Position numbers and translations under genes: made by a program. Source: Escherichia coli (GTDB lineage Bacteria; Pseudomonadota; Gammaproteobacteria; Enterobacterales; Enterobacteriaceae). From it: 8,303 nucleotides of DNA. The notes beneath the pieces are model-generated. The model searched no databases. It saw nothing but the letters and a program-made list of their open reading frames with translations, and was not told the origin of the DNA. Positions 2,300 to 2,390 of this stretch are shown here, in pieces. Within the stretch, counting starts at the first letter, position 1. Every line of letters starts with the position of its first letter. The stretch lies in the NCBI RefSeq assembly GCF_003334255.1, contig NZ_QOWU01000092.1; one strand, written 5' to 3'.

Positions 2300-2351
2300 G
2301 GGCGCAATATAAATACTCCTGTCGAGTGAAATATTTTTTGTTTTTGATCAA
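2300..2351 (-). promoter_or_regulatory. Candidate FNR-dependent class II promoter of ydfZ (FNR-like site TTGTT-N4-ATCAA at 2338-2351 plus -10-like TATTTA)
   Basis: TTGTTTTTGATCAA at 2338-2351 matches the FNR consensus TTGAT-N4-ATCAA at 9 of 10 positions. A -10-like hexamer (minus-strand TATTTA, plus 2310-2315) sits about 22 bp downstream of the site edge, consistent with a site centred near -41.5. ydfZ is reported in the literature to be strongly FNR-activated. Confidence 0.45.
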
Positions 2352-2390
2352 GCTCACATCTTTTTTGATGCATGCATGAGCCATAAGGCG

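What the first reader, a model, noticed from the sequence alone, without database searches (positions are those of the whole stretch)
2300..2380. ydfZ upstream region: near-consensus FNR site plus a separate 10-bp perfect palindrome
TTGTTTTTGATCAA (2338-2351) fits TTGAT-N4-ATCAA at 9 of 10 positions, at the right distance from a -10-like element for a class II FNR promoter. This is consistent with reports that ydfZ is one of the most strongly anaerobically induced FNR targets. About 28 bp further upstream (2368-2377) is a perfect palindrome, ATGCATGCAT, that the FNR site does not explain. It could be a second regulator site near -70 or a structural element.
Basis: partly seen in the sequence, partly recalled or inferred. 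Interest (0 to 1): 0.3.

Follow-up and report, generated by a model that had tools for sequence, protein, structure and literature searches.

The report
Known ydfZ FNR promoter; chance palindrome
The flagged stretch is the already well-characterised oxygen-sensing (FNR-activated) promoter of the E. coli ydfZ gene, and the neat 10-base palindrome next to it is a young, E. coli-only sequence coincidence rather than a second control site.

Summary
The window is E. coli ydfI–ydfZ–rspR–ydfG–dcp, with ydfZ on the minus strand.

The FNR site (2351→2338) is real and already published. It is centred at −41.5 from the mapped TSS (window 2303). FNR ChIP-chip and ChIP-seq peaks are reported there, and PydfZ-lacZ is a standard class II FNR reporter. 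The site is almost invariant in every orthologous promoter sampled.

The palindrome ATGCATGCAT (−65..−74) is not supported as a feature:
- Perfect 10-bp palindromes occur 8 times in the window, against 10.1±3.1 in shuffles.
- It is perfect only in E. coli. Other Escherichia species have ATGCAAGCAT, …GCAC or …GCGT, and Citrobacter, Salmonella, Enterobacter and Kosakonia have unrelated sequence.
- Conservation collapses exactly at its downstream edge.
- It matches no NsrR, NarL, CRP or FNR motif and folds no better than shuffled sequence.

It overlaps the FNR site by sharing the TTGATCAA core and was recently footprinted in vitro (Kd about 5 nM).

Verdict: already known promoter plus a chance palindrome. 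Low interest.

The parts
2053..2256 (-). ydfZ coding sequence (67 aa, putative selenium delivery protein, Pfam PF14001)
   Evidence: ORF list. RefSeq annotation under a 100% identical match in E. coli genomes. Homologues carry PF14001.
2257..2303 (-). ydfZ 5'UTR (47 nt). The transcription start is the G at 2303.
   Evidence: Kim 2012 supplementary table gives TSS 1,627,192, a 47-nt UTR and upstream sequence ending ...GTATTTATATTGCG, which maps to window 2303. 45 of 47 columns are invariant within Escherichia.
2310..2315 (-). -10 hexamer TATTTA (-12..-7), inside the conserved GCGTATTTATAT block
   Evidence: Position follows from the mapped TSS. The block is conserved in alignment A1. The hexamer assignment itself is inference. 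The generic sigma-70 scan finds no -35/-10 pair, as expected for an activator-dependent promoter.
2338..2351 (-). FNR site TTGATCAAAAACAA, centre 2344.5 = -41.5 (class II position)
   Evidence: 9/10 consensus match. FNR weight-matrix score 12.69 against a training median of 11.8. Published as the ydfZ FNR site at -41.5, with ChIP-chip and reporter use. 11 of 14 columns invariant in 14 taxa.
2343..2358 (-). CRP site TGTGAGCTTGATCAAA, centre 2350.5 = -47.5. It overlaps the FNR site and shares the TTGATCAA core, which contains a GATC Dam site at 2346-2349.
   Evidence: CRP weight-matrix score 15.86, the top hit in the window. Footprint-seq preprint Table 1 lists ttTTTGAtcaagcTCACAtct with Kd about 5.2 nM, identical to window 2341-2361. 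ydfZ is on the CRP genomic-SELEX predicted-target list. GTGA is invariant in 14 taxa.
2361..2366 (-). A6 tract (-58..-63), the upstream edge of the conserved promoter block. Likely docking DNA for the RNA polymerase alpha C-terminal domain.
   Evidence: Five of the six A columns are invariant in 14 taxa, and the -56..-64 block is 9/9 identical within Escherichia. The alpha-CTD role is inferred from the general class II activation model.
2368..2377 (.). Palindrome ATGCATGCAT (-65..-74, centre -69.5). Judged a chance, lineage-specific sequence in the weakly constrained spacer between the rspR terminator and the ydfZ promoter.
   Evidence: Exact at these coordinates. 8 such palindromes in the window against 10.1±3.1 expected. 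Perfect only in E. coli. 0 of 10 invariant columns. No NsrR, CRP, FNR or NarL match. DNA fold z = -0.21.
2401..2424 (-). rspR (ydfH) intrinsic terminator hairpin CTCTCATCCCATCCGGGGTGAGAG followed by TCTTTT (-98..-121 relative to the ydfZ TSS)
   Evidence: Terminator scan. RNA fold -32.8 kcal/mol with z = -5.07, dominated by this hairpin. The rspR ORF ends at 2433.

Best explanation
The 2300-2380 stretch is the core and upstream part of the known ydfZ promoter. Under anaerobiosis, [4Fe-4S]-FNR dimers bind TTGATCAAAAACAA centred at -41.5 and recruit RNA polymerase by the class II mechanism. In that mechanism FNR contacts sigma-70 region 4 and the alpha subunit, and the alpha C-terminal domain is displaced to the conserved A-tract at about -58..-63. 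Transcription starts at window 2303.

A conserved CRP site centred at -47.5 shares the TTGATCAA core with the FNR site, so CRP and FNR cannot occupy the promoter at the same time.

The palindrome ATGCATGCAT at -65..-74 has no specific function. It lies just beyond the upstream edge of the conserved promoter block, in spacer DNA downstream of the rspR terminator. Other Escherichia species carry ATGCAAGCAT there, so a single A-to-T substitution in the E. coli lineage would have produced the perfect palindrome.

Shown by tool results or cited data: site positions, the TSS, FNR ChIP occupancy, CRP binding in vitro, conservation patterns, and the chance statistics. Inferred: the alpha-CTD role of the A-tract, CRP/FNR mutual exclusion, and non-function of the palindrome.
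For: Locus identity.

TSS: Kim 2012 place it at 1,627,192, which is window 2303, so the FNR centre is -41.5. This agrees with Myers 2013 Table 1, which gives -41.5 and increased anaerobic sigma-70 occupancy and expression.

FNR binding and use: ChIP-chip peak; class II reporter; FNR matrix scores 12.69 (-41.5 register) and 12.33 (-47.5 register).

CRP: matrix score 15.86; in vitro footprint at the identical sequence with Kd about 5.2 nM; genomic SELEX listing.

Conservation, E. coli against 8 non-Escherichia taxa: FNR 0.98, TGTGA block 0.89, A-tract 0.80, palindrome 0.46, -75..-84 0.33.

Palindrome variants: ATGCAAGCAT in E. albertii, E. whittamii and E1V33; ATGCAAGCAC in SCPM; ATGCAAGCGT in MOD1; ATGCATATATTCAT in E. 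fergusonii; unrelated sequence in Citrobacter, Salmonella, Enterobacter and Kosakonia.

Chance: 8 perfect 10-bp palindromes observed against 10.1±3.1 expected.

Negative motif and structure tests.
Against: The palindrome is fixed in about 99.6% of complete E. coli genomes (5405 of 5426 keep the exact 2354-2377 core), while positions 2383-2392 just upstream are polymorphic in about half of them. This is compatible with weak E. coli-specific constraint. However, 10-15 bp without a common SNP is also expected from shared ancestry.

Lack of conservation cannot exclude a lineage-specific operator, and only four regulator motifs were tested.

I could not read the primary promoter papers (Kang 2005, Mettert 2008). 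I therefore do not know whether promoter deletions upstream of -64 have been assayed.
Confidence: 0.85

Rival explanations
1. The palindrome is an operator for a dimeric transcription factor, known or uncharacterised, bound at about -69.5. It would modulate FNR-dependent activation specifically in E. coli, by analogy with NarL/NarP upstream of FNR at nirB-type promoters.
For: Perfect dyad symmetry. Its position is a typical upstream-regulator position relative to the mapped TSS. It is near-fixed within E. coli.
Against: It is not perfect in any other Escherichia species and is absent in other genera, whereas the adjacent promoter block is invariant. Its frequency matches chance. No NarL heptamer lies within 2321-2420, even allowing 1 mismatch. 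NsrR, CRP and FNR matrices all score poorly. None of the papers found for 'ydfZ' reports a factor there.
Confidence: 0.05
2. The palindrome region is an NsrR (nitric-oxide sensor) half-site, because it contains the ATGCATC core of the NsrR 11-mer.
For: The minus strand reads ATGCATGCATCAA, which contains ATGCATC. That resembles the right half of AAGATGCATTTnAAATGCATCTT (Mehta 2015 Table 4). A single 11-bp motif is reported to be sufficient for binding.
Against: A matrix built from the 26 distinct Table 4 sequences gives -0.47 for the best 23-mer over the palindrome, against a training minimum of 12.0. The best half-sites score 3.0-3.4, against a training lower quartile of 7.2, and rank 160-200 in this window alone. 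No ydfZ peak appears in the CFT073 NsrR ChIP-seq tables.
Confidence: 0.01
3. The palindrome is a structural element: a DNA cruciform or Z-DNA tract, or an RNA hairpin in rspR read-through transcripts.
For: It is self-complementary, with 11 nt of alternating purine and pyrimidine. The RNA fold pairs UGCAUC with GAUGUG across the A6 loop.
Against: A 10-bp palindrome can form at most a 3-bp stem with a 4-nt loop. The DNA fold of the region gives -3.7 kcal/mol with z = -0.21. The A-tract-spanning pairing is imperfect, is not consistently maintained in other genera, and has no U-tract after it. Rfam finds nothing in 1950-2550.
Confidence: 0.02
4. FNR actually binds the other register, GTGAGCTTGATCAA centred at -47.5 (the register reported by AlignACE in Grainger 2006), rather than the -41.5 register.
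For: FNR matrix scores are almost equal, 12.33 against 12.69. Grainger 2006 list the 24-mer centred on this register. Myers 2013 count 2 FNR motifs under the peak.
Against: -47.5 is not an activating position, whereas -41.5 is canonical. The AACAA half-site is as conserved as TGTGA. The -47.5 register scores much better as CRP (15.86) and is bound by CRP in vitro.
Confidence: 0.07

Closest known systems
Class II FNR-activated promoters of E. coli (dmsA, narG, nirB, nrfA; FNR centred at -41.5)
   Same: TTGAT-N4-ATCAA-type site centred at -41.5 from a mapped TSS, no recognisable -35 element, anaerobic FNR-dependent activation. ydfZ is itself listed in this class.
   Different: Nothing essential differs: this is a member, not an analogue. 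The distinctive point is a high-affinity CRP site offset by 6 bp that shares the TTGATCAA core.
nirB/nrfA-type composite promoters (FNR at -41.5 plus a NarL/NarP 7-2-7 site at about -69.5 or -74.5). The site positions are from my own knowledge of the literature; FNR and NarL/NarP co-regulation of pnrf is confirmed only at abstract level (PMC5434802).
   Same: The ydfZ palindrome is centred at -69.5, where nirB carries its NarL/NarP site.
   Different: No TACYYMT heptamer, even with one mismatch, lies within 2321-2420. The sequence at this position is not conserved.
Shared or hybrid CRP-FNR sites, such as the Salmonella pepT hybrid CRP-FNR site, and synthetic CC/FF(-41.5) promoters (from my own knowledge, not checked with the tools)
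   Same: CRP and FNR are paralogous regulators with related half-sites (TGTGA and TTGAT), and one stretch of DNA can serve both.
   Different: At ydfZ the two sites are distinct registers 6 bp apart (-47.5 and -41.5), not one hybrid site. Only the FNR register is at an activating position.
NsrR 11-1-11 operators (ytfE, hmp, hcp)
   Same: They share an ATGCAT core.
   Different: Matrix scores are far below those of real sites, and no ChIP-seq peak is reported at ydfZ.

Membership tests
Class II FNR-activated promoter | Match to the FNR consensus TTGAT-N4-ATCAA | tested here: met
   9 of 10 positions. Matrix score 12.69 against a training median of 11.8, using a matrix built from Grainger 2006 Table 2 without ydfZ.
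Class II FNR-activated promoter | Site centred at about -41.5 relative to an experimentally mapped TSS | tested here: met
   The Kim 2012 TSS at 1,627,192 maps to window 2303. The site centre at 2344.5 is therefore -41.5, the same value as in Myers 2013.
Class II FNR-activated promoter | FNR occupancy in vivo and FNR-dependent anaerobic induction | not testable with these tools
   Literature only: ChIP-chip, ChIP-seq with increased anaerobic expression, and reporter use.
Class II FNR-activated promoter | Conservation of the site in orthologous promoters | tested here: met
   11 of 14 columns invariant in 14 taxa, with mean identity 0.97. FNR-like sites also lie upstream of the more distant YdfZ homologues.
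Specific transcription-factor operator at the palindrome | Occurs more often or in better form than chance allows | tested here: not met
   8 perfect 10-bp palindromes in the window against 10.1±3.1 in shuffles. P=0.16 for at least one in a 176-nt intergenic region.
Specific transcription-factor operator at the palindrome | Conserved in orthologous promoters | tested here: not met
   Perfect only in E. coli. 0 of 10 invariant columns in 14 taxa and 4 of 10 within Escherichia.
Specific transcription-factor operator at the palindrome | Matches a known regulator motif (NsrR, NarL/NarP, CRP, FNR) | tested here: not met
   NsrR -0.47 for the 23-mer and 3.0-3.4 for half-sites. CRP -11. No FNR matrix hit above 2 overlaps it. 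No NarL heptamer nearby. Other regulators were not tested.
Specific transcription-factor operator at the palindrome | Protein binding or a mutational effect | not testable with these tools
   None of the accessible papers found for 'ydfZ' reports one.
DNA or RNA structural element (cruciform, hairpin) | Folding energy better than shuffled sequence, or a stem long enough to extrude | tested here: not met
   DNA fold z = -0.21. The palindrome has no loop. No Rfam hit.
CRP binding site (for the overlapping -47.5 element) | Match to TGTGA-N6-TCACA and to a CRP weight matrix | tested here: met
   TGTGA-GCTTGA-TCAAA matches 9 of 10 positions. Matrix score 15.86 against a training lower quartile of 15.1 and median of 17.1, and it is the top hit in the window.
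CRP binding site (for the overlapping -47.5 element) | CRP binding demonstrated | not testable with these tools
   Literature: Footprint-seq preprint, Kd about 5.2 nM at the identical sequence; genomic SELEX list. I found no in vivo or regulatory evidence.
CRP binding site (for the overlapping -47.5 element) | Conservation of the CRP-specific half-site outside the FNR core | tested here: met
   GTGA at -54..-51 is invariant in 14 taxa.

The most novel reading that the evidence does not exclude
The conserved arrangement of a high-affinity CRP site (-47.5) and the FNR site (-41.5) sharing one TTGATCAA core could be a deliberate mutually exclusive switch. cAMP-CRP would compete with FNR and gate anaerobic ydfZ expression by carbon status. 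This would be conserved across Escherichia, Citrobacter, Salmonella, Enterobacter and Kosakonia. The Cronobacter/Franconibacter clade instead places a consensus CRP-type site about 29 bp upstream of its FNR-like site, which would be about -70.5 if that site also sits at -41.5.

Separately, with about 5% probability, the palindrome could be an E. coli-specific operator for an unidentified factor.
Probability: 0.3. Interest if true: 0.4.

Novelty: already known. Interest (0 to 1): 0.08.

Why it matters
It matters little. PydfZ is already a textbook-grade class II FNR reporter, so confirming its FNR site adds nothing new. Showing that the palindrome is a young chance sequence removes a false lead.

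The one useful by-product concerns the widely used PydfZ reporter. It carries a conserved, high-affinity CRP site overlapping the FNR site, so its output may depend on carbon source and cAMP as well as on O2. Laboratories that use it as a pure FNR-activity read-out should know this.

Tried and rejected
- **NsrR operator or half-site:** rejected by a matrix built from Mehta 2015 Table 4 and by the absence of a ChIP-seq peak.
- **NarL/NarP 7-2-7 site at -69.5:** no heptamer within 2321-2420.
- **CRP or a second FNR site at the palindrome:** CRP matrix -11. The minus strand has a perfect ATCAA half-site (2369→2365), but no FNR matrix hit above 2 overlaps the palindrome.
- **Cruciform or hairpin:** DNA fold z = -0.21. 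The RNA signal belongs to the rspR terminator.
- **Known RNA family:** no Rfam hit in 1950-2550 at E ≤ 1.
- **Divergent or antisense sigma-70 promoter:** no consensus promoter-like site on either strand in 2000-2500.
- **Compensatory hairpin across the A-tract:** suggested by E. coli CATC/GATG against C. amalonaticus CACAGC/GCTGTG, but not maintained in C. freundii, Salmonella, Enterobacter or Kosakonia.
- **Literature:** Kang 2005 (PMC545700) and Mettert 2008 (PMC2648814) are not held. One broad search was uninformative. A full-text search for 'ATGCATGCAT' returned only unrelated primer and oligonucleotide papers among the 15 listed.
- **Orthologue scan:** the genome-contig scan returned only 17 loci because the peptide patterns were strict. 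I supplemented it with 10 exact-protein look-ups.

Full report
**Locus.** The window is the E. coli chromosome segment ydfI (558-2018, +), ydfZ (2256→2053, −), rspR/ydfH (3119→2433, −), ydfG and dcp. A 401-nt query spanning ydfZ and its upstream region matches 5417 of 5426 complete E. coli genomes, where RefSeq annotates ydfZ ('putative selenium delivery protein') and rspR. The finding lies in the 176-nt rspR–ydfZ intergenic region (2257-2432) and must be read on the minus strand.

**Observation.** TTGTTTTTGATCAA is at 2338-2351, which reads TTGATCAAAAACAA on the minus strand and matches the FNR consensus at 9 of 10 positions. ATGCATGCAT is at 2368-2377. Taken alone, neither is significant. 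A match to the FNR consensus with at most 1 mismatch is expected 0.57 times per window. Perfect 10-bp palindromes occur 8 times in the window against 10.1±3.1 in dinucleotide shuffles, and a shuffled 176-nt intergenic region contains at least one with P=0.16.

**The FNR site is real and already known.** Kim et al. 2012 map the ydfZ TSS at 1,627,192 with a 47-nt leader and upstream sequence …GTATTTATATTGCG (PMC3415461 supplement). This corresponds to the G at window 2303. The FNR 14-mer is then centred at −41.5, the value tabulated by Myers et al. 2013. They quote the site as 'TTGATaaaaAACAA', classify ydfZ as directly FNR-activated, and use a PydfZ-lacZ reporter (PMC3688515). Grainger et al. 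2006 found a ChIP-chip peak there (PMC1802558). PydfZ is tabulated as 'Activated; Class II promoter' in PMC6343905. A weight matrix built from Grainger's published motif instances, without ydfZ, scores the −41.5 register at 12.69 against a training median of 11.8.

**Comparative test.** I collected ydfZ upstream regions from about 20 taxa using a genome-contig scan and exact-protein look-ups, then aligned 14 that share the E. coli-type promoter (alignment A1).
- The A-tract, GTGA, TTGATC, CAAA and the GTAT…TA −10 block are invariant.
- Mean identity of E. coli to 8 non-Escherichia taxa is 0.98 (FNR 14-mer), 0.89 (−49..−55), 0.80 (A-tract block), 0.46 (palindrome), 0.33 (−75..−84) and 0.11 (−85..−97).
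- The palindrome therefore sits immediately outside the conserved promoter block. It has 0 of 10 invariant columns overall and 4 of 10 within Escherichia.
- E. albertii, E. whittamii and E1V33 have ATGCAAGCAT. Strain SCPM has ATGCAAGCAC, MOD1 has ATGCAAGCGT, and E. fergusonii has ATGCATATATTCAT. Citrobacter, Salmonella, Enterobacter and Kosakonia have unrelated sequence.
- By parsimony, the perfect palindrome arose through one A-to-T change in the E. coli lineage.
- Within E. coli it is fixed: 5405 of 5426 genomes keep the exact 2354-2377 core, and one sampled variant has ATGCACGCAT. The roughly 50% polymorphism in the surrounding 40-mer lies at 2383-2392 in the six variants I inspected. Fixation of 10 bp within one species is expected from common descent and is not evidence of selection.

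**Motif and structure tests on the palindrome.**
- NsrR, whose half-site core is ATGCAT: a matrix from Mehta 2015 Table 4 gives −0.47 for the best 23-mer against a training minimum of 12.0, and 3.0-3.4 for half-sites against a lower quartile of 7.2. Their ChIP-seq tables list no ydfZ peak.
- CRP matrix: −11.
- FNR: no hit above 2 overlaps it.
- NarL heptamers: none within 2321-2420, even with one mismatch.
- DNA folding of the region is no better than shuffles (z = −0.21).
- The strong RNA signal upstream is the rspR terminator at 2424→2401.
- Rfam finds nothing.

The invariant TGTGA at −55..−51 lies outside the FNR core. Together with TCAAA it forms TGTGA-N6-TCAAA, centred at −47.5.
- This register is the one AlignACE reported in Grainger 2006. 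It is probably the second of the '2' FNR motifs counted by Myers.
- It scores 12.33 with the FNR matrix.
- It scores 15.86 with a CRP matrix built from Footprint-seq sites with Kd below 10 nM, which is the top CRP score in the window.
- The Footprint-seq preprint (PMC12871828) lists exactly this sequence, ttTTTGAtcaagcTCACAtct (window 2341-2361), as a novel CRP site with Kd about 5.2 nM.
- Shimada 2011 list ydfZ among predicted CRP SELEX targets.

The two sites share the palindromic TTGATCAA core, which contains a GATC, and are 6 bp apart. Simultaneous occupancy is therefore implausible; this is my inference. A second clade (Cronobacter, Franconibacter, 'Enterobacter pulveris', P0086) uses a different layout, with a consensus CRP-type site 29-30 bp upstream of an FNR-like TTGATCGAGATTAA.

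**Mechanism and verdict.** ydfZ is transcribed from a class II FNR promoter, with FNR at −41.5, the A-tract at −58..−63 as the likely alpha-CTD docking region, −10 TATTTA, and the TSS at 2303. An overlapping CRP site probably competes with FNR. The palindrome is spacer sequence between the rspR terminator and the promoter and is palindromic by chance. The FNR part is already known, and the palindrome is not a real feature. Residual uncertainty of about 5-8% covers an E. coli-specific operator for a factor I did not test.

**Limits.** The alignment upstream of the A-tract is unreliable beyond the genus. Only four regulator motifs were scored.

Noticed in passing
window 2343-2358 (footprint 2341-2361): A conserved CRP site, TGTGAGCTTGATCAAA, is centred at -47.5. 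It overlaps the FNR site by sharing the TTGATCAA core. It is the top CRP-matrix hit in the window (15.86), its GTGA is invariant in 14 taxa, and it is identical to a site footprinted in vitro at Kd about 5.2 nM in a 2026 preprint. The standard PydfZ FNR reporter may therefore also respond to cAMP-CRP.
   Followed up: yes
window 2346-2349: A GATC (Dam methylation) site lies at the centre of the shared TTGATCAA core of the FNR and CRP sites. It is invariant in all 14 aligned taxa and is also present in the second-clade FNR-like site TTGATCGAG.
   Followed up: no
L007, L008, L025, L027 (about 75-110 nt upstream of the ydfZ homologue start codon): Cronobacter, Franconibacter, 'Enterobacter pulveris' and P0086 have a different promoter layout: a CRP-type site ((T/C)GTGATATTCATCACA; GCGACATTCATCACA in P0086) 29-30 bp upstream of an FNR-like TTGATCGAGATTAA with a TAAAAT -10. 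The CRP-type site would be at about -70.5 if the FNR-like site is at -41.5. CRP plus FNR input to ydfZ seems ancestral, but its geometry differs between clades.
   Followed up: partly
window 7491-7510: ATTTTGTTTTAAATCACAAT scores high with both the CRP matrix (14.7) and the FNR matrix (12.9). It lies about 110 bp upstream of the 212-aa ORF that starts at 7615 (dgcZ/ydeH-like).
   Followed up: no
window 2253-2384 (minus strand); L018 801-1154: A 43-aa ORF runs across the whole ydfZ promoter and ends overlapping the ydfZ ATG. E. fergusonii YdfZ is annotated as 117 aa (P0011), with a 50-aa N-terminal extension running through the promoter region. This is probably a start-codon misannotation.
   Followed up: partly
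window 2257-2303; L026, L021, L006, L019, L020: The ydfZ 5'UTR is 45/47 invariant within Escherichia and begins with GCCCGTTACGTGGGC. Citrobacter species carry a roughly 17-nt insertion that creates CGTGGG…CCCACG pairing. Folding signals are modest (z = -1.15 for E. coli, -1.71 for Citrobacter), so a conserved 5'-terminal stem-loop is possible but unproven.
   Followed up: partly
window 2314-2320 (+ strand): An exact NarL-type heptamer, TACTCCT, overlaps the -10 region of PydfZ (-11..-17). It is a single copy, and heptamer matches in the window are at chance frequency (84 against 88.6 expected).
   Followed up: no
window 2383-2392: The stretch just upstream of the palindrome is polymorphic in about half of complete E. 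coli genomes. Variants seen include TTATGG to TTACGG, GCC to GAC, and GCCTT to GTCAT. From 2377 downstream to the ydfZ start the sequence is essentially fixed.
   Followed up: partly
L009 (265-bp contig in an Alkalicoccobacillus porphyridii assembly): A low-coverage 265-bp contig is 100% identical to E. coli ydfZ and its promoter. This is almost certainly E. coli contamination of that assembly.
   Followed up: no
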